In this document: positions 1 through 8,266 of the stretch, piece by piece
Numbering within the stretch: position 1 is the first letter of the stretch
Layout: every line of letters begins with the position of its first letter
Source: an uncultured bacterium
Lineage (GTDB): Bacteria; Verrucomicrobiota; Verrucomicrobiia; Verrucomicrobiales; DEV007
NCBI GenBank assembly: GCA_963977015.1
Contig: CAXBMO010000005.1
Span: 256,001 to 320,000 of the forward strand
Length of the DNA stretch: 64,000 bases
Direction: 5' to 3'
The notes under the pieces: generated by a model
What the model saw: the letters and a program-made list of their open reading frames with translations, nothing else
The model's database searches: none
What the model was told of the DNA's origin: nothing
Translations under genes and position numbers: made by a program

Positions 1-683
1 ACCAAGCCCGCTTCGCCAATGCGCTGACCGGGCGTGTTGAGCGTGCTCATGAGCTTGACGGCCTTATCGACGACGGCTTGGGCGGCCAGTCCGCGTTTGA
101 TGGCGGTGGTGAGGATTCCAGTGCCGAGCGGCTTGGTGAGGACGAGGATATCTCCGGGCTTGGCGCCAGCGTTCGTCATCATGTTTTTCGGATGAACCAT
201 TCCGGTAACGGAAAGTCCGTAAATGGGCTCCGGATTTTTGATGGAGTGACCGCCGGCGAGGGCGCATTTCGCCTCTTTGACCTTCTCGGCGCCACCTTTG
301 AGAATCTCGTTGATGATCTCGCTGCTGACCAGGTCGACCGGCATGCCCATGACGTTCATCGCGGTGATGGGACGACCTCCCATGGCATAAACATCCGAAA
401 GCGAGTTCGTCGCGGCAATCTGGCCGTAGATGAACGGATCGTCGACAATGGGCGTGAAGAAGTCGACGGTCTGGACGAGGGCCCGCTCTTCATCGAGCTG
501 GTAGATACCCGCGTCATCAGACGTCGCTGATCCCACCAATAAATTGGGATCTTCATACTGAACTAACCCCCGCAAAACTTGCGTGAGCGCCGATTGGCTA
601 AGCTTGGATGCTCATCCCGCGCAGGAGGAAAGGGAGGTAAGTTTCAGTTTTTCGTCTGCTTTGGCAGCGTCAGGGGAACTCAT
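1..683 (-). CDS. selD: Selenophosphate synthetase (SelD/SenC), selenocysteine-containing; runs off the left edge of the window
   Basis: Manual translation from ATG 683 (alternative ATG 698): [103 protein letters not shown]...LAGGHS...LTKPLGTG. These are classic SelD motifs. The in-frame TGA at 614-612 occupies the catalytic Cys/Sec position. Not in the ORF track. Confidence 0.96.
567..587 (-). promoter_or_regulatory. Putative SECIS element of selD
   Basis: Hairpin CTCA-CGCA-AGTTT-TGCG-GGGG on the minus strand. The loop G lies 34 nt after the UGA, consistent with the bacterial SECIS model. Confidence 0.75.
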
Positions 684-772
684 GGTCGTAAGTTTCATGT
701 AAGGCGGTCCGGTGGAGTTTCCAACGAAACTTTTTGCGGATTCGCACGACAAAATGACAGAATAGCTGACGC

Positions 773-1723
773 ATGAAGATTTGAATCCTTACACCATCGG
801 CCGCAGTTTCGCGGACCGGGAATCGCTGCACGGCGAGCCAATGGGCCGAGATGATCGCCGGGCCGGGGTTGGTCATCTCAAAGTGCGAAGGATCGTGCAC
901 CGGTGGGCCGAAAATCCTGATTGGGCTTCATGCCGAGCGAAGCCACGCGTCGATCGTGAATTTTCGCGAGGAACATCCGGAGGGTCGCGTAATCCTGGCT
1001 CTGACGGGAACCGACATTTATCCCGCGCCCAATGAGACCTCACGCGAATCGATCGAATTGGCGGATCGGCTCGTCGTTCTTCAGCGCAGGGCGTTGAACC
1101 AGCTTCCGCCGGAATCGCGGGACAAGGCGCGGGTCATCATTCAGTCCGCGGTTCGCTTGTCTGACAAACCCGCGAATCCCGATACTTTTGACGTGTGCGT
1201 GGTCGGTCACCTTCGCGATGTCAAGGATCCGCTCCGGGCCGCCAAAGCCGCGCGCCTTCTCCCCGCCACGTCCAAGATCCGCATTCTTCACGCCGGCGGC
1301 CTACTCGATCCCCACTACGAAGAACTTGTCCAGATCGAACAGGCAGAGAACCCGCGCTATCACTACCTCGGCGAGTTGGACGAACAGGGAATCGCGGATT
1401 TGATGGCCCAAAGCCGGATTCTCGTCGTGTCGTCCCGCCAGGAAGGCGGCGCGCGGGTCGTCGGGGAAGCGATCGTGCATGATACGCCGGTGATTTCATC
1501 CCGGATCGATGGAGTCGTTGGCCTGCTCGGTCCGGAGTATTCCGGATATTTTGACGTTGGCGACACCGCAGGTCTCGCGAACCTTCTTTCCAAGGCGGAA
1601 ACAAATCCGGAATTTGCCGCAGCCCTCAACCGTGAAACCCAGGACGTCGCTCTTCAATTTGACCCGCAAGTCGAATGCGATGCCTGGAAACAGCTGATCG
1701 CTGAACTTACCCCCGCTTCATGA
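773..1723 (+). CDS. senB: Selenosugar synthase SenB (GT-B glycosyltransferase) with an in-frame UGA at codon 4
   Basis: ATG773 AAG ATT TGA ATC CTT ACA CCA reads MKI-U-ILTPSAAVSRTGNRCTASQWAEM and is in frame with ORF 851-1723. SenB-type motifs: GNxxTA, LHAxRS, LTGTDIY, VGHLRDVKDP, SRQEGGA. Lies between selD and an EgtB-like gene. Confidence 0.9.
797..819 (+). promoter_or_regulatory. Putative SECIS element of senB
   Basis: Hairpin TCGG-CCGC-AGTTTC-GCGG-A-CCGG. The loop G lies 22 nt after the UGA at 782-784, and the loop resembles the selD hairpin. Confidence 0.65.
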
Positions 1724-3012
1724 ATTGCTGCCCCCAAGAACTCCTCTCCTGTCTCGATGAAGCCGACTCGCGCATGGTTGCCCTCATTGACACGTTGACC
1801 GACGAACAGCTCCACGTGCCTTATGAACGTGGCATCAATCCGCCCATCTGGGAAATGGGCCATTCCGCGTTCTTCTTTGAGTATTTTTTGCTGCGAGAAC
1901 TCTACGGCGGCGAGGTCCGCATGCCGGGCTACGACGAGATCTGGGATTCGTTCGAGATTCCGCATCGCGAACGCTGGAGCCAGGGCGTCGTCCCGCCAAA
2001 AACCGAATCGTTCGATTACTATCGTCGCGTCATCGACGAGACGCGTTCCAAGCTCGATCGCGAATCCGAGCTTACCGGGAAGGAAGCCTACCTGACGAAG
2101 TACTGCATCGCCCACCAGTGCATGCATCTTGAGTCGCTCATCTGGTCGCGACAAACGCTGGGCTATCCTGCCCCACCCTTCTCCGAACTGGCTCCGGACG
2201 GACTCGAAACCACAATTGATTCCGGGGACGCGGAGATTCCCGGCGGAGACTACTTCATCGGCATTCCTGCTCACGATCAGAATGCGCCGGACGCGACCTT
2301 CAGCTTCGACAATGAACGCCCCGGGTTCACCAAACGACTCGAACCGTTCCAGATCTCCAAGACCCTGGTTTCCAATCAGGAATTCGCTGAGTTTGTCGAT
2401 GACGGCGGCTACGAGAATCCGGACCACTGGAGCTTTGGCGGCAAATACTGGCTGCGCGAGTCCGCCGCCAAACATCCCATCTACTGGCAAAAACGGGACG
2501 GAGAATGGTGGATGCGACGGTTCGATCAACTGGAACCGCTGCGTTTGAAAGCTCCGGCGCTTCATCTCTCGTTCCGCGAAGCGGAGGCATTCTGCAAATG
2601 GTCCGGGCGCCGTCTCCCTACCGAATTCGAATGGGAAGCAGCCGCCCGTGGCCCCGGGGCGTTTCTCTATCCCTGGGGCAACCAAATCGTCGATCACGCA
2701 GCCTGGGACCTCGACGCCAAGTATCTTGGCACGGCTCCGGTTACCGCGTTTCCTCAGGGAGCAAGTCCGTCCGGTTGTCTGCAAATGCTCGGCACCGCCT
2801 GGGAGTGGACCACGAGCCAATATCTCCCGTTCGACGGTTTCAAAGTCGACATGTATCCTTATATGTCGACCCTGCAATTTGGCGATCACAAGACCACGCG
2901 CGGTGGCGGCTGCGCGACGTCTTCCTGCATTATTCGCAACACCTACCGCCAAGCCTATTTTCCGGATCGAAACGACGTCTTCATTGGTTTTCGAACCTGT
3001 GCTCAGGATTGA
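1720..3012 (+). CDS. senA: Non-heme iron selenoxide synthase of the EgtB/OvoA family (SenA, possibly OvsA clade)
   Basis: DinB-like N-terminus (NPPIWEMGH; HQCMHLE metal motif) plus FGE-sulfatase domain (RLPTEFEWEAAARG, GTAWEWT, GFRTC). ATGA overlap with senB. Confidence 0.85.
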   Translation: MNCCPQELLSCLDEADSRMVALIDTLTDEQLHVPYERGINPPIWEMGHSAFFFEYFLLRELYGGEVRMPGYDEIWDSFEIPHRERWSQGVVPPKTESFDYYRRVIDETRSKLDRESELTGKEAYLTKYCIAHQCMHLESLIWSRQTLGYPAPPFSELAPDGLETTIDSGDAEIPGGDYFIGIPAHDQNAPDATFSFDNERPGFTKRLEPFQISKTLVSNQEFAEFVDDGGYENPDHWSFGGKYWLRESAAKHPIYWQKRDGEWWMRRFDQLEPLRLKAPALHLSFREAEAFCKWSGRRLPTEFEWEAAARGPGAFLYPWGNQIVDHAAWDLDAKYLGTAPVTAFPQGASPSGCLQMLGTAWEWTTSQYLPFDGFKVDMYPYMSTLQFGDHKTTRGGGCATSSCIIRNTYRQAYFPDRNDVFIGFRTCAQD

Positions 3013-3113
3013 ATCCCGGAATCGGGATCGCATTCCAATCCGATAATCCGATTATAATGGCTACGGAATAGCTTGATCCTGTAGTCTAGCGTCAATTCTA
3101 ACCCAATGACTTG

Positions 3114-3704
3114 ATGACTGACTTAAATAATTGGTGGGATGCGATGGGCACAGGCACTCAGATTTTTTACGGGATTGCGCTGCTTTCGACGCTCTGCCTT
3201 CTCATTCAAACAACGCTCTTGCTTTTCGGACTCGACCACGGCGGGGATCTCGACTTCGACGCCGACGCGACGGGAGATTTCGATCATGGAGATGACGGGC
3301 TTTCCCTGCTTTCGGTGCGCACCATCATTTCCTTCCTTGTCGGATTCGGCTGGGTTGGCGTCATCACCACCAAATCCGGTTTGGGCGTTCTCCTCGGATT
3401 GGTCTTCGCCACGATCGCAGGTTTCATCCTGATGTTGACCGTCTTCTGGATCATGCGAAGCTTTGCCCGCCTGCAGTCTGACGGAACCTTGAACTTCACC
3501 AACGCGATTGGAGAAATCGGAACGGTCTACCTACCCATTCCTCCGGAGAAACAATCGGCTGGCCAGATCGAAGTGATGATCCAGGGCAGGCTCATGGTGG
3601 TGCGGGCATTTACCAGTTCCGAGGAGAAACTCGACAACCGTTCCAAAGTCCGAGTGATCGATGTTGTCGGTGAAGACGCGCTCCTCGTTCAGCCCCTGAA
3701 CTAA
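3114..3704 (+). CDS. NfeD-like (YuaF-type) membrane protein
   Basis: Several TM segments and a C-terminal OB-fold pattern (GEIGTVYLPIP...GQIEV). Directly upstream of a flotillin. Confidence 0.8.
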   Translation: MTDLNNWWDAMGTGTQIFYGIALLSTLCLLIQTTLLLFGLDHGGDLDFDADATGDFDHGDDGLSLLSVRTIISFLVGFGWVGVITTKSGLGVLLGLVFATIAGFILMLTVFWIMRSFARLQSDGTLNFTNAIGEIGTVYLPIPPEKQSAGQIEVMIQGRLMVVRAFTSSEEKLDNRSKVRVIDVVGEDALLVQPLN

Positions 3705-3744
3705 CCCTTTACCTGGATTTTTTTAACACACAACCCAAAGACCC

Positions 3745-5286
3745 ATGATGGAAACCCAACCCATGCTCGCCATTGCTTTCGAGTTTATTATCGGAGCCGG
3801 CACCTTTATCCTGGCGATTTTCGCAACGATCATCGCCCTCGCCAGTCGCTATAAACGCTGCCCCCCGGACCGCATCCTTGTTCAATACGGACGCATCGGA
3901 AACCGAGGGGCCAAGAGCGCACGCTGCTCTCACGGCGGCGGCGCCTTTGTCTGGCCAATCATTCAGGATCACGCGTTTCTCGATCTGACGCCGATCCCCA
4001 TCGACATCCGGCTGGAGGGAGCACTCTCCCAGCAGAACATCCGCGTGAACACGCCCTCCACCTTTACGGTCGGAATCTCGACCGAACCCGGGGTGATGGA
4101 GAACGCCGCAGAACGCGTCCTGGGCCAGAGCCTGGAACAGGTGCGCGATTTGGCGAAGGACATCATCTTCGGCCAGATGCGCGTCGTCATCGCAACCATG
4201 CCGATTGAGGAAATCAACGCCGACCGCGACAAATTGATCGATTACATCTCGAACGGCGTCGAAGTGGAGTTGAAAAAGGTCGGGCTACGGCTTATCAACG
4301 TCAACATCCAGGATATTACCGATGAATCCGGATACATCGACGCGCTCGGACGCGAAGCCGCGGCCCGGGCGATCAACGATGCCAAGATCAAAGTCGCCGA
4401 GAAAGAGCGCGATGGAGAGATCGGGAAAGCCAGCGCCGAAAAAGTACAACGCACAGAAGTGGCCGCGCTGCATGCCGCCGCGACCGAAGGGGAAAACATT
4501 GCTGCGGTCACGGTCGCCCAGTCGATGGCGGCTCGTCGCGAAGCGGAAGCGGAAGCCCAACGTCGTGGTCAGGCAGCCGAGATGGTGAAAGTTGCCGAAG
4601 CCAAGAAGGAAGCTTACCTCGCCGAAGAAAACGCTGAGCGCCAGCGGGCCAAGCGGGAAGAAGCAACCCAATACGCCAACGTCGTTGTTCCTGCGGAAAT
4701 CGAGAAGCAGCGCATTGAAACGCTGGCTGAAGCCGCCGCTGAAAAAACGCGGCGTGAGCGCACCGGTGAGGCCGACGGTCTCCGTGCCGTTCGTCAGGCC
4801 GAAGCCGATGGTATCAAAGCCGATCTGGTTGCCAAAGCAGAGGCCCTCAAGGTCGAAGCCGAAGGAATCAAGGCACAGCTCGATGCGAAAGCCGAAGGTA
4901 TCCGGAACCTCTACGGATCAGCCGGAGAAGATGCCGATTTCGTGAGCCTCATGCTCGTGATCGAACAACTGCCTCAACTGATCGAGGAGCAGGTCAAAGC
5001 CGTCTCCAACCTGAAGATCGACAAAGTCACGGTCTGGGATGGCGGCAGCAACGGCAAGGGAACTGGTGGCACGACCGACTTTGTCTCGAATCTGGTCAAG
5101 GCGCTCCCGCCCCTGCACGAGTTAGCCGGAAACGTGGGCGTCAAGCTGCCTGAGTATTTCGGCCAGTTGACCGACGGAGGAAAACCAAATGGAGCTTCGG
5201 AACCCCCAATTCGGGTGGCGGAAGCCGAGGCCAAAGTGGCGAACCCGACTCCGAAACTGCCGGAGAAACCTTCCAAAGCCAGCTAA
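3745..5286 (+). CDS. Flotillin/SPFH family protein
   Basis: N-terminal TM, SPFH domain (GGAFVWPIIQ, INVNIQDITD), Ala/Glu-rich coiled coil, KIDKVTVWD. Confidence 0.92.
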   Translation: MMETQPMLAIAFEFIIGAGTFILAIFATIIALASRYKRCPPDRILVQYGRIGNRGAKSARCSHGGGAFVWPIIQDHAFLDLTPIPIDIRLEGALSQQNIRVNTPSTFTVGISTEPGVMENAAERVLGQSLEQVRDLAKDIIFGQMRVVIATMPIEEINADRDKLIDYISNGVEVELKKVGLRLINVNIQDITDESGYIDALGREAAARAINDAKIKVAEKERDGEIGKASAEKVQRTEVAALHAAATEGENIAAVTVAQSMAARREAEAEAQRRGQAAEMVKVAEAKKEAYLAEENAERQRAKREEATQYANVVVPAEIEKQRIETLAEAAAEKTRRERTGEADGLRAVRQAEADGIKADLVAKAEALKVEAEGIKAQLDAKAEGIRNLYGSAGEDADFVSLMLVIEQLPQLIEEQVKAVSNLKIDKVTVWDGGSNGKGTGGTTDFVSNLVKALPPLHELAGNVGVKLPEYFGQLTDGGKPNGASEPPIRVAEAEAKVANPTPKLPEKPSKAS

Positions 5287-6199: not shown

Positions 6200-7117
6200 C
6201 TACACTCCAATGGGCGGCTTGAAGCCCTCCGGTTTGATGACCAGGGTTGAGCACGGAGTGGCCCCAATCACCTTTTCCGCCGTCGTTCCGAGAAGCAGCA
6301 CGTTCAGTCCGGTGCGCCCGCGACTGGCGAGCACGAGCAAATCGATGTCATGTTGCTTCGCAAACTCAATGACTCCGTTGGATGGACTAACGCTTTCGGT
6401 GACGTGAGTCTCGACTTCCAATCCCTCCAGATCTTCCGCGCATTCTTGCCGGATGTCCCGGAACCCGGCTTCGGCTTCCTCGCGCCAGGGCGGCTCGCCA
6501 CCGGGGGGAATCACCTTCGACAGGGCGATCAATTCGCCCAATTTTTCGCCGACGGGCCGAATCACATTCACCAGATGCAGACGTGAGCCAAACTGCCGGG
6601 CGATGGCCGTGGCCTCCCGCACGACCAGTTTTGAGGTGACCGAAAAATCAAGGGCAGCTCCGATGTTCGAAAACGGCTCCTCCTGATGGTAGCGAACCAG
6701 CATCACCCGGATGGGCGCCTTGCGGACACACTTGGCGGCAACAACGCCCGTACGATCGTCGGATCCCGTGAGACCGCGCGTGCCCAGCACCAACAGATCG
6801 GCATCATGACGATAACAGGCCTCGACCAGTTCCAGGAACGGTTGCCCCATCAACACTTCGCACTTCACGGGACCGGGTCTTCCCAGCTGCTCGACGACCC
6901 ACAACTCGAGTTCTTCACGCCCTTTCTTCATCACCTCGGCCTTGGTCAGTTGAATTTTTGAAGCGAGATGCGCGTAGCTTTGCTCATCAATGATGTGAAC
7001 CGCGGTTACTTCCGCACCTTTGGCCCCGGCCAACCGGACCGTCTCCTTCAAGGCATTGGCGGAACAATGAGAGAAATCGATTCCCACGACAATGTGATGA
7101 CTGGTCATGAAACTCAT
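6200..7117 (-). CDS. Tandem-domain universal stress protein
   Basis: Two USP repeats (IVVGIDFS...DLLVLGTRG; AALDFS...DLLVLASRGRTG...LGTTAEKV). Confidence 0.92.
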   Translation of the reverse strand: MSFMTSHHIVVGIDFSHCSANALKETVRLAGAKGAEVTAVHIIDEQSYAHLASKIQLTKAEVMKKGREELELWVVEQLGRPGPVKCEVLMGQPFLELVEACYRHDADLLVLGTRGLTGSDDRTGVVAAKCVRKAPIRVMLVRYHQEEPFSNIGAALDFSVTSKLVVREATAIARQFGSRLHLVNVIRPVGEKLGELIALSKVIPPGGEPPWREEAEAGFRDIRQECAEDLEGLEVETHVTESVSPSNGVIEFAKQHDIDLLVLASRGRTGLNVLLLGTTAEKVIGATPCSTLVIKPEGFKPPIGV

Positions 7118-7259
7118 GATCTCATTTCCCAAGCATTTTTGCAGCGCGTAGCTTGCACATCGCTCGCCGCCTGTTGGCAACGGTGCTTCCCAAAAACTTT
7201 TCCCACCTCAGACGCGCACGCCTGGCTCGCTCGGAATCACGCGAGGGTCTAAAAAATAG

Positions 7260-7353
7260 CGGAGTGGGAAGGAATCGAACCAACCTCGGCAAGGATCACT
7301 TGTCGACAACGGTTTTGAAGACCGCGGGGGCCACCAGGCACCCATCGCACTCC
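7260..7353 (-). tRNA. selC: tRNA-Sec (anticodon UCA)
   Basis: GGAGTGCGATGGGTGCCTGGTGGCCCCCGCGGTCTTCAAAACCGTTGTCGACAAGTGATCCTTGCCGAGGTTGGTTCGATTCCTTCCCACTCCG. Long D-stem with a 4-nt TGGT loop, CTTCAAA anticodon loop (TCA at 7318-7316), long variable arm, GTTCGATTC T-loop, discriminator G. CCA is not encoded. Confidence 0.95.
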
Positions 7354-7501
7354 ATTGGCTTATGCAGCGGAGAAGCTTGGTCTCTCAGTCGCTCCCGTCA
7401 ATAAAAACAGACAGGGTATCGTAGCATTTGCACATTTTTTTTTGTGTGCGACTAACCATCTCAAGCAGGGTTGCATCTCTCAACGGATCACAACAGCTAA
7501 T

Positions 7502-8266
7502 ATGAAATTCAATATTTGCTTGGCAGTACTACTCGTTTTTTGTCCCTTGGTTTTGTTCGGGCAGAAAGACAGTTTCCCTCCCCTTTCAGAGGAACAATCA
7601 ATGGCCGAGGGTTGGGTGGATGAGTATTCCGGGAAAACCATCAAGGCTGGCGATATGGCCTACAAACTCATCAATCATCGTATAAAGCATTCTCCGCGAG
7701 TTGGAATGCGCGCTCCCGAATTCAGACTCTATTCCATTCAGAGAAAAGAATTCGTTACCCTTGAATCGCTCCGTCGAGAAAAAGATGTTGTCCTGCTTTT
7801 TTCGAGTTGGACGTGCAATGTTTTTATGGAATCAGCATTGGGGCTATCTTCGCTGGCCTCCGAATTCAAGGATTCTGCCAATTTTGTATTCGTCTACATC
7901 CGTGAGGCACATCCCGGGAACGGCGGATTCGGGGAAATATTAGATCCTAGATCTGATGAGGAGCGAATTCAGGCAGCTCAGAGATTTAAGAATCAAGTCC
8001 GTCTTCCGTTCGAAATTCTGGTGGATCCTCACAAGGATCCAATGGCGACAAGGTGGGCAGCGTGGCCCGTCCGAGTCTATGTTGTCGATACCAACGGAAT
8101 TGTGATCTACAGCGGGGCACAAGGACCGTGGAGTTATCGCCCCTACGAAGGTTTTCTGCACGGCGACGGAAGCTGGGACGACATTGACCAAGGCTTCAAC
8201 GAGGACACTCTTGAATCCTTTTTGAGATCTCGTTTTTGCCGTGAGATAAGCACGGGGGCTCAGTGA
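7502..8266 (+). CDS. Iodothyronine deiodinase-like thioredoxin-fold protein (Cys form) with signal peptide
   Basis: APEFRL, FSSWTC, FVFVYIREAHP, WAAWPVRVYVVD...IYSGAQGPW. Start chosen at MKFNICLAVLL. Confidence 0.8.
   Translation: MKFNICLAVLLVFCPLVLFGQKDSFPPLSEEQSMAEGWVDEYSGKTIKAGDMAYKLINHRIKHSPRVGMRAPEFRLYSIQRKEFVTLESLRREKDVVLLFSSWTCNVFMESALGLSSLASEFKDSANFVFVYIREAHPGNGGFGEILDPRSDEERIQAAQRFKNQVRLPFEILVDPHKDPMATRWAAWPVRVYVVDTNGIVIYSGAQGPWSYRPYEGFLHGDGSWDDIDQGFNEDTLESFLRSRFCREISTGAQ

What the first reader, a model, noticed from the sequence alone, without database searches (positions are those of the whole stretch)
567..3012. Possible selenium-gated translational switch for selenometabolite biosynthesis
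Seen: two divergent genes about 90 bp apart each have an early UGA plus hairpin, and the senB stop overlaps the senA start (ATGA at 1720-1723). Inference: Sec at residue 4 of a structural strand is unlikely to be catalytic and fits a sensor role better. When Sec-tRNA is scarce, ribosomes would stop after three codons, removing SenB and, by coupling or polarity, SenA. Selenophosphate would then go to selenoprotein synthesis first and to the small-molecule pathway only when Se is sufficient. I am not aware of this circuit having been described.
Basis: inference. Interest (0 to 1): 0.85.

Follow-up and report, generated by a model that had tools for sequence, protein, structure and literature searches.

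The report
Selenocysteine codon early in senB
The gene for the selenium-sugar enzyme SenB in this marine bacterium very probably needs selenocysteine at its fourth codon, so the cell can make the enzyme for a selenium antioxidant only when it already has enough selenium for its selenoproteins.

Summary
selD (start 683, minus strand, UGA at codon 24) and senB (start 773, UGA at codon 4) lie 89 bp apart and diverge. Each UGA is followed by a hairpin, and the senB stop overlaps the senA start (ATGA, 1720-1723).

The senB UGA is not an error:
- It sits at codon 4 in 4 of 4 genomes of the genus (56-76% protein identity).
- It is intact in two independent metagenome assemblies.
- The hairpin stem is frozen at synonymous sites.
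- The genome has selA, selB, tRNA-Sec (window 7260-7354) and a single, Sec-containing SelD.

Position 4 is variable across SenB, and the characterised enzymes have Val or Ala there. Sec is therefore not needed for catalysis.

Other SenB genes also carry in-frame TGAs. Two Planctomycetota have one at the same position. Three further genomes have one at codon 31, about codon 25 and codon 129. All of these genomes have selB.

The selenium-gate reading is plausible but unproven. A rival is nearly as good: about 10% of the homologues sampled have Cys at position 4, and it co-varies with a second Cys, which suggests a redox pair.

I found no Sec-containing SenB in print. The scan's earlier notes do not hold it either.

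The parts
3..683 (-). 5' part of selD/senC (selenophosphate synthetase). It runs off the window start. It is the only SelD in the genome.
   Evidence: Translation. The own-genome search gave 375.7 bits with 1 TGA and no second SelD over the cut-off.
612..614 (-). selD UGA, codon 24, at the known catalytic Sec/Cys position of SelD (motif SCAG-U-ASKL).
   Evidence: The same TGA is present in G001, G002, G003 and G027.
571..583 (-). selD SECIS-type hairpin: 5 pairs, loop GUU.
   Evidence: The pair next to the loop is A-U in the window and G-C in G003, G001 and G027, a change on both sides.
684..772 (.). 89-bp divergent spacer between selD and senB.
   Evidence: No sigma-70-like promoter match in 500-3300 (0 found, 1.4 expected).
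773..1723 (+). senB, selenosugar synthase: 316 codons with Sec at codon 4.
   Evidence: TIGR04348, 330 bits, cut-off 300. Model pLDDT 94.8. TM-score 0.91 to solved SenB 8jjn.
782..784 (+). In-frame UGA, codon 4 of senB, read here as selenocysteine.
   Evidence: Conserved in 4 of 4 genomes of the genus. Intact in contigs of two runs from different studies.
798..818 (+). SECIS-like hairpin after the senB UGA. The loop is at 805-810, and its G lies 25 nt from the U of UGA.
   Evidence: The loops of two thioredoxin-fold Sec genes and of selD in the same genome also hold GUU.
1720..1723 (+). ATGA overlap: senA start and senB stop.
   Evidence: Kept in G001, G002 and G003 and in several sen clusters without the TGA.
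1720..3012 (+). senA, selenoneine synthase (EgtB-like).
   Evidence: NF041186, 402 bits, cut-off 420. Pfam DinB_2 plus FGE-sulfatase.
7260..7354 (-). tRNA-Sec gene (anticodon loop CUUCAAA), about 4.2 kb beyond the senA stop.
   Evidence: RF01852, 61.8 bits, gathering score 47. ARAGORN found nothing there.

Best explanation
senB of this marine Verrucomicrobiales genus is a selenoprotein gene.

The ribosome starts at ATG 773. At codon 4 it meets UGA, and SelB bound to the hairpin at 798-818 delivers Sec-tRNA(Sec). Full-length SenB (M-K-I-U-I-L-T-P...) is therefore made only when charged tRNA-Sec is available.

Sec sits in the first strand, at a position that varies freely in the family. It is not needed for catalysis.

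The effect is a selenium checkpoint. SenB consumes selenophosphate from the same single SelD that feeds SelA. When selenium is short, translation ends after a tripeptide. About 940 nt of senB then stay untranslated, and the overlapped senA start loses its coupling. Selenophosphate is then left for selenoprotein synthesis, and selenoneine is made only from a surplus.

Shown here: the conserved UGA, the selected hairpin, the Sec machinery, the non-catalytic position, the overlap and the single SelD.

Inferred: Sec insertion itself, selenium dependence of SenB and SenA levels, and that this gating is why the UGA is kept.
For: - TGA at codon 4 in 4 of 4 genomes of the genus. Codons 1-3 are kept as M-K-I/V through a synonymous and a conservative change.
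- Codons 5-26 are conserved as protein. They hold the N17 and T20 equivalents of the published N20/T23, so translation must pass the UGA.
- Third positions are invariant in 4 of 4 stem codons against 38 of 314 gene-wide, while loop codons vary. This pattern occurs at 2 of 302 places in the gene.
- Hairpin criterion met by 4 of 4 TGA genes, 3 of 22 SenB genes without the TGA, and 176 of 3000 random coding positions.
- Loops of selD and of two thioredoxin-fold Sec genes in the same genome also carry GUU at similar spacing.
- selA, selB and tRNA-Sec are present. selB is present in G001-G003.
- There is one SelD only and one SenB only.
- Position 4 takes 16 different residues in 238 homologues. 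Solved, active SenBs have Val7 and Ala7 there.
- Other lineages carry in-frame TGAs at other variable sites. G042 has one at codon 31, followed by a 6-pair hairpin with loop GGUC. G1178 has one at about codon 25, and G1021 at codon 129. All three genomes have selB.
- The four database proteins nearest to G042's SenB that come from longer contigs are annotated as truncated. Three of them start 4-6 codons after the TGA site (P0274-P0276). The fourth, P0272, starts at about residue 48. A fifth, P0273, is cut by its contig's end.
- The TGA is intact in contigs of two runs from different studies.
Against: - There is no expression, labelling or mass-spectrometry evidence.
- Folding energies of the hairpin are not better than shuffles.
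- Cys occupies position 4 in 39 of 396 homologues. It goes with a Cys just before strand 3 in 28 of 39 of these, against 103 of 357 of the others (relatives are not independent).
- Every gene with U at position 4 also has a Cys in that loop. This points to a chemical role for the selenol.
- Two Planctomycetota have their TGA at exactly the same position. That fits a functional site as well as it fits a site where a hairpin forms easily.
- The codon 31, 25 and 129 cases each rest on the DNA of a single genome.
- The ATGA overlap and hairpins in this region also occur in SenB genes without a TGA.
- The divergent selD neighbour is missing in G001 and G002.
- Control: SenA had no in-frame stop in 0 of 31 genes, against 4 of 105 SenB matches with an internal TGA in the same 401 genomes. 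This difference is too small to weigh.
Confidence: 0.4

Rival explanations
1. The UGA is a real Sec codon, but Sec is kept for its chemistry. It would be the Sec form of a Cys that a SenB subfamily has at position 4. It would pair with a Cys of the loop between strands 2 and 3 as a selenenylsulfide redox or selenium-handling site. Selenium dependence of expression would be a by-product.
For: - Cys at position 4 in 39 of 396 homologues, the second most common residue in that sample.
- Cys4 goes with a Cys just before strand 3 in 8 of 12 against 59 of 282, and in 28 of 39 against 103 of 357.
- Mutual information puts positions 38 and 41 as the strongest partners of position 4.
- The genus has Cys38 and a clade-specific Cys42, seen in 3 of 103 sequences, all from the genus.
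- G880 has C-P-C and G985 has R-C-D in the same loop.
- The same position carries the TGA in two phyla.
- Sec/Cys pairs are the usual mark of functional selenoproteins (established knowledge).
Against: - The nearest relatives of the genus have Ser, Gly or Lys at position 4, not Cys.
- The solved, active enzymes have Val or Ala there.
- TGAs at codons 31, about 25 and 129 have no Cys counterpart. Position 31 shows 0 Cys among 311 sequences apart from the query row itself.
- The association tests ignore relatedness.
- No coordinates were available to measure the distance from residue 4 to the Cys residues.
Confidence: 0.33
2. There is no Sec. Translation of SenB starts at codon 5 (ATC, or GTG in G001), as public annotation has it. 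ATG-AAG-ATT-TGA would be a three-codon leader or a chance feature.
For: - NCBI records start the orthologues at codon 5 (P0004 312 aa, P0012 313 aa).
- Codon 5 is GTG in G001, and ATC is a table-11 start.
- Hairpin energy is not better than shuffles.
Against: - Codons 1-3 match the family's own N-terminus. The NCBIfam profile begins at residue 3.
- They are kept through a synonymous AAG/AAA change and a conservative ATT/GTC change at 56% overall identity.
- A start at codon 5 would remove half of strand 2-7.
- In G880 the codon after the TGA is GTC, which is not a start.
- In G985 a TTG three codons before the TGA again gives M-R-I-U-I-V-T-P (my reading of the DNA printed).
- ATC is a very weak start (recalled knowledge).
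Confidence: 0.12
3. The gene is broken, or the TGA is a sequencing or assembly error.
For: The genome is a draft of 51 contigs. In the congener G002 the senA gene shows a frame change.
Against: - The same TGA is present in four species-level genomes with an otherwise open and conserved frame.
- It is also present in a metagenome scaffold and in contigs of two runs from different studies, one with 1 difference elsewhere in the piece.
- Of the stops flagged inside SenB matches, 9 lie within the coding frame and all 9 are TGA. The other two, in G175 (TGA) and G310 (TAA), are the genes' natural stop or lie at the end of the match.
Confidence: 0.03

Closest known systems
SenB selenosugar synthase of Variovorax paradoxus (PDB 8FBX, 8JJN, 8JJQ) and RsSenB (8K5U)
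   Same: - Same family (TIGR04348, over the cut-off) and same GT-B fold (TM-score 0.91).
- The equivalents of N20, T23 and K158 and the E-G-G-A motif are present.
- It lies next to senA and a SelD gene.
   Different: - Those enzymes have Val or Ala where this gene has UGA.
- None of the SenB papers I looked into speaks of Sec in SenB. I read passages of PMC10891094, PMC10702425 and the 2022 preprint. I saw the other papers only in search listings.
Classical bacterial selenoprotein genes (selD itself, thioredoxin-fold UxxC proteins, fdhF)
   Same: In-frame UGA, a hairpin immediately downstream with GU in the loop, dependence on selA/selB/selC, and Cys-containing homologues.
   Different: - In those families Sec is at one fixed catalytic or redox position. 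In SenB the UGA lies at a variable, non-catalytic position only four codons from the start.
- Other lineages carry their UGA at other positions.
- The 2026 review of prokaryotic selenoprotein families has no occurrence of 'SenB' or 'glycosyl' (term search in PMC13188914).
Selenium control of fdhF-Sec by translation-coupled transcription in Treponema primitia (Matson et al. 2013, PMC3892789)
   Same: A Sec codon makes downstream expression depend on selenium through coupling of translation and transcription (abstract read).
   Different: There the Sec is catalytic and the gene controls only itself. Here the UGA would gate a small-molecule pathway that competes for selenophosphate, and a downstream overlapped gene too.
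SECIS-like element in the 5' leader of E. coli selAB
   Same: A SelB-binding hairpin close to a start codon is used for regulation according to Sec status.
   Different: That element lies in an untranslated leader and represses initiation. Here the hairpin follows an in-frame UGA inside the coding sequence.

Membership tests
SenB (NCBIfam TIGR04348, selenoneine biosynthesis selenosugar synthase) | Score over the curated cut-off across the full length. | tested here: met
   330 bits against a cut-off of 300. Residues 3-310 match profile positions 1-309, with the TGA read through. Genome search: 329.6 bits.
SenB (NCBIfam TIGR04348, selenoneine biosynthesis selenosugar synthase) | GT-B fold like the solved SenB. 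| tested here: met
   AlphaFold2 model pLDDT 94.8. Foldseek TM-score 0.91 and E = 1.3e-28 to 8jjn_A.
SenB (NCBIfam TIGR04348, selenoneine biosynthesis selenosugar synthase) | Published key residues: N20, T23, K158, E231 and the EGGAHV motif. | tested here: met
   N17, T20, K151, E224-G225-G226-A227 are invariant or nearly so in the 103-sequence alignment. They line up with the solved chains. The residues are named in PMC10891094. The motif reads EGGARV here.
SenB (NCBIfam TIGR04348, selenoneine biosynthesis selenosugar synthase) | Clustered with senA and a SelD/SenC gene. | tested here: met
   senA directly downstream. selD diverges 89 bp upstream. senA follows senB in all four congeners.
Bacterial selenoprotein gene (UGA plus SECIS) | In-frame UGA conserved among orthologues, with conserved coding sequence on both sides. 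| tested here: met
   4 of 4 genomes of the genus at 56-76% identity.
Bacterial selenoprotein gene (UGA plus SECIS) | Stem-loop shortly after the UGA with G/U in the apical loop. The spacing rule is recalled from the published bacterial SECIS model. | tested here: inconclusive
   - The hairpin is present in 4 of 4 genes and is frozen at synonymous stem sites.
- It resembles the hairpins of three other Sec genes of the genome.
- Its energy is not better than shuffles.
- The GU of the loop is also fixed by a Val codon.
- No Rfam family matched.
Bacterial selenoprotein gene (UGA plus SECIS) | selA, selB, selC and selD in the genome. | tested here: met
   selB 293 bits, selA 498 bits, tRNA-Sec 61.8 bits, SelD 375.7 bits.
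Bacterial selenoprotein gene (UGA plus SECIS) | Homologues with Cys at the Sec position. | tested here: met
   9 of 238 and 39 of 396 have Cys. The nearest relatives of the genus have Ser, Gly or Lys.
Bacterial selenoprotein gene (UGA plus SECIS) | Selenium shown in the protein. | not testable with these tools
   Needs 75Se labelling or mass spectrometry.
Selenium-responsive control through a Sec codon (as in T. primitia fdhF-Sec) | Expression of the gene and of downstream genes changes with selenium supply. | not testable with these tools
   Only the anatomy is seen: an early UGA, the ATGA overlap, and no terminator-like site in 500-3300.

The most novel reading that the evidence does not exclude
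Early in-frame UGA codons have arisen repeatedly in senB. They lie at four different non-catalytic positions in at least four or five lineages of two phyla, all with selB. They would act as a selenium-sufficiency checkpoint: selenoneine synthesis is licensed by charged tRNA-Sec, so that selenoprotein synthesis has first call on selenophosphate. This would be a use of the Sec codon as a regulatory sensor, not as a catalytic residue.
Probability: 0.35. Interest if true: 0.85.

Novelty: new variant of a known kind. Interest (0 to 1): 0.68.

Why it matters
Selenoproteins are thought to hold Sec where its chemistry is needed. A conserved Sec codon four codons into a glycosyltransferase, at a freely varying position, does not fit that rule.

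Two readings follow, and both are new for SenB. One is that SenB has an unrecognised redox or selenium-handling site. The other is that the codon is a cheap translational gate that ranks the two uses of selenophosphate, proteins before the small-molecule antioxidant.

It also matters for annotation. Public records cut these SenB genes short or start them at ATC or GTG. Surveys of selenoneine producers and of selenoproteomes therefore miss them.

The gate idea can be tested directly with reporter fusions.

Tried and rejected
- Rfam scan of 1-4000 at E up to 10: only three chance-level matches and no SECIS family.
- ARAGORN on 6500-8000 found no tRNA, although Rfam's tRNA-Sec model matches there.
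- Folding energy against shuffles was not significant for any of the four senB hairpins or for selD.
- My motif scan for Sec genes (C..U and similar) gave 1212 and then 199 candidates, nearly all noise. I used only the two thioredoxin-fold hits that Pfam confirmed.
- Metagenome scan with the window's SenB gave only a 100% identical scaffold.
- Genome-collection scan with P0274 gave two distant SenB loci and no close relative of G042.
- Relatives of G042 (61 genomes) and of G880 (56 genomes) gave no close SenB.
- Phylum-wide sample of 400 other Verrucomicrobiota gave no SenB at E <= 1e-50.
- G175's flagged TGA is only its natural stop.
- No RNA holder is listed among the public runs.
- The laid runs were contigs and say nothing on transcripts.
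- The MFE-based hairpin criterion misses the hairpins that I read by eye in G880, G985, G042 and G1021. Those four rest on inspection of the printed sequence.
- Supplementary files of the papers were closed. The sen-cluster lists in the supplements of the 2022 discovery paper might show such truncated SenB genes, and I could not see them.
Full report
WHAT IS THERE

The window opens inside selD (also called senC) on the minus strand. Its ATG is at 683, and a TGA at 612-614 is codon 24, in the motif SCAG-U-ASKL. That is the known Sec/Cys position of selenophosphate synthetase.

Eighty-nine bases away, on the plus strand, senB starts at ATG 773. It has a TGA at 782-784 as its fourth codon. Read through, the product scores 330 bits against NCBIfam SenB (TIGR04348, cut-off 300), and the match begins at residue 3.

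The senB stop (1721-1723) overlaps the ATG of senA (1720-3012). SenA scores 402 bits against NF041186, just under the cut-off of 420.

IS THE UGA REAL?

A search of relatives that reads through stops found the TGA at codon 4 in all four genomes of the genus. Three read M-K-I-stop-I-L-T-P and one reads M-K-V-stop-V-L-T-P, at 56-76% protein identity.

In the whole family (134 genomes, 64 with SenB), no other genome has an internal stop. One further flagged TGA, in G175, is its natural stop.

Codons 2 and 3 differ between species by a synonymous change (AAG/AAA) and a conservative change (ATT/GTC). This is expected only if they are translated as part of SenB.

Codons 5-26 are conserved as protein. 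They hold the equivalents of N20 and T23, which mutagenesis showed to matter (passages of PMC10891094).

The TGA is also intact in contigs of two public runs from different studies. One of these carries a difference elsewhere in the same piece. An error or a dead gene is very unlikely.

THE HAIRPIN

A stem of seven pairs with one bulged A spans 798-818, with loop AGUUUC at 805-810. All four species have a hairpin at the same place.

Its free energy is not better than that of shuffled sequence. No Rfam family matches.

Selection is visible at synonymous sites:
- Across the gene, 38 of 314 third codon positions are invariant in the four species.
- In the four stem codons (9, 10, 13, 14), all four third positions are invariant.
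- In the two loop codons, both third positions vary.
- This pattern occurs at 2 of 302 places in the gene.

I also applied a simple criterion: six or more pairs, a loop of 3-8 holding GU, and the G lying 20-40 nt from the codon. It is met by:
- 4 of 4 TGA-bearing genes;
- 3 of 22 SenB genes without the TGA;
- 176 of 3000 random in-frame positions of this genome.

Three other Sec genes of the genome have hairpins with GUU in the loop at 27-37 nt from the UGA. These are selD and two thioredoxin-fold genes with U in the CxxC motif, confirmed by Pfam. In senB the distance is 25 nt (distances counted by me on the printed sequences). The selD stem shows a change on both sides of one pair between species.

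THE MACHINERY

The genome has selB (293 bits), selA (498 bits) and a tRNA-Sec gene inside this window at 7260-7354. The three congeners have selB and a TGA-bearing SelD.

The genome has one SelD and one SenB. SenB and SelA therefore draw on one selenophosphate supply, and that supply is itself made by a selenoprotein.

WHERE SEC SITS

A confident model (pLDDT 94.8) places residue 4 in strand 2-7. The model matches solved SenB with a TM-score of 0.91.

The solved, active enzymes have Val7 and Ala7 at this position.

Among 238 homologues with intact N-termini, the position holds 16 different residues. The counts are Leu 103, Ala 22, Val 17, Gln 17, Gly 14, Ser 14, Thr 10, Arg 10 and Cys 9, with the rest at lower numbers.

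The nearest relatives of the genus have Ser, Gly or Lys there.

BEYOND THE GENUS

In the order-level sample, 102 of 401 genomes hold SenB-like genes (105 matches). One more of them has an internal TGA. This is G042, from another family. Its TGA is at codon 31, at the end of the first helix. That position is variable and hydrophilic: Glu 80, Ser 47, Gly 37 and Arg 32 of 311. A six-pair hairpin with loop GGUC follows about 20 nt later, and the genome has selB.

The four database proteins nearest to G042's SenB that come from longer contigs are at 98%, 73%, 73% and 57% identity, and all are annotated as truncated. Three of them start 4-6 codons after that site. The 98% one starts at about residue 48. 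A fifth, at 75% identity, is cut by its contig's end. This is indirect evidence that the stop is conserved, because I could not obtain their DNA.

In a sample of Planctomycetota, 58 of 401 genomes have SenB. Four of them carry an internal TGA:
- two at exactly the position seen here (R-V-stop-V-V-T-P and L-R-I-stop-I-V-T-P);
- one at about codon 25;
- one at codon 129, in the domain linker.

All four genomes have selB.

In G880 the hairpin uses the same 3' arm as in the window, made of the Ser-Arg-Thr codons, with loop GGUC (my reading).

On a tree of 346 SenB sequences these cases fall into separate groups. The genus forms one group and the G042 group another. The two Planctomycetota with U at position 4 lie near each other but far from the genus. 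The remaining two are singletons.

HOW IT MOST LIKELY WORKS

If the UGA is Sec, which I put near 0.8, then SenB can be made only when SelB carries Sec-tRNA(Sec). At low selenium, the release factor wins after three residues. The cell loses a tripeptide, not a protein. The senB message stays untranslated, and the overlapped senA start loses its coupling.

The ATGA overlap is kept in all four congeners. It is also common in sen clusters that lack the TGA. Translation-coupled selenium control of a Sec gene has been shown in Treponema primitia (PMC3892789, abstract).

The effect follows from the anatomy. That it is the reason the UGA is kept is an inference.

THE MAIN RIVAL

In a wider sample of 396 homologues, Cys is the second most common residue at position 4 (39 sequences). 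That sample is enriched for relatives of the Planctomycetota query. Cys4 goes with a Cys just before strand 3 in 28 of 39 cases, against 103 of 357 of the others (earlier sample 8 of 12 against 59 of 282). Relatives are not independent, so these tests overstate the link.

Every gene with U at position 4 also has a Cys in that loop. The genus has a clade-specific Cys42 beside Cys38. Mutual information ranks positions 38 and 41 as the strongest partners of position 4.

This looks like a Sec/Cys redox pair.

The two readings do not exclude each other. The TGAs at positions that lack any Cys counterpart favour the gate. The shared position and the co-varying Cys favour chemistry.

OTHER RIVALS

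Public annotation starts the orthologues at codon 5 (ATC or GTG). Three points argue against this:
- the conserved M-K-I/V N-terminus;
- the loss of half of the first strand that such a start would cause;
- G880, where the next codon is GTC, which is not a start.

The divergent selD is beside senB in only two of the four genomes with the codon-4 TGA. The pair of early UGAs facing each other is therefore not a unit. The selD UGA is the ordinary catalytic Sec.

NOVELTY

Searches for SenB together with selenocysteine, SECIS, selenoprotein or TIGR04348 found no report of a Sec-containing SenB. A 2026 review that tabulates prokaryotic selenoprotein families has no occurrence of 'SenB' or 'glycosyl'. 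A 2025 paper on a selenoprotein-prediction tool has none of the terms either.

Paper supplements were closed. The library also lacks most subscription journals, so the claim is limited to these searches. The scan's earlier notes hold no such case.

VERDICT

SenB is very probably a new selenoprotein, with an unusually early, non-catalytic Sec. The selenium-gate circuit is plausible, testable and undescribed, but it is not shown here, and a redox-pair reading is nearly as likely.

Noticed in passing
window 7260-7354 (-): tRNA-Sec gene (61.8 bits, anticodon loop CUUCAAA), about 4.2 kb beyond the senA stop. ARAGORN did not call it.
   Followed up: partly
L015 (G042), codon 31 of its senB: A second SenB lineage with an in-frame TGA at another variable position, followed by a six-pair hairpin with loop GGUC. 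Its nearest database relatives are annotated as truncated, three of them starting a few codons after that site.
   Followed up: partly
L078-L081 (Planctomycetota G1021, G880, G1178, G985): Four of 58 Planctomycetota SenB genes carry an in-frame TGA: two at the window's position, one at about codon 25 and one at codon 129. All four genomes have selB.
   Followed up: partly
L067 (G000:C1:180509-180967) and L068 (G000:C2:344337-344849): Two thioredoxin-fold genes of the same genome have TGA at the first Cys of the CxxC motif (W-U-G-P-C and W-U-G-G-C). Their hairpin loops are GUU and AGUUG. Both are probable selenoproteins.
   Followed up: partly
L011 (G002), downstream of senB: senA of this congener matches in two pieces in different frames, joined near residue 205. 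This is either a frameshift or an assembly error in that draft genome.
   Followed up: no
order-level searches: SenB-like genes are far more common than SenA in this order: 102 of 401 genomes against 31 of 401, at different E-value limits. Many SenB-like genes may therefore serve other selenosugar pathways.
   Followed up: no
window 571-583 (-) and the same place in G003, G001, G027: The selD hairpin keeps its pairing through a change on both sides: the pair next to the loop is A-U in the window and G-C in the other three.
   Followed up: partly
window 3111-5286 (+): Two ORFs directly after senA, of 197 aa (hydrophobic) and 513 aa (rich in Ala, Glu and Lys). I did not examine them, and their link to the sen genes is unknown.
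   Followed up: no
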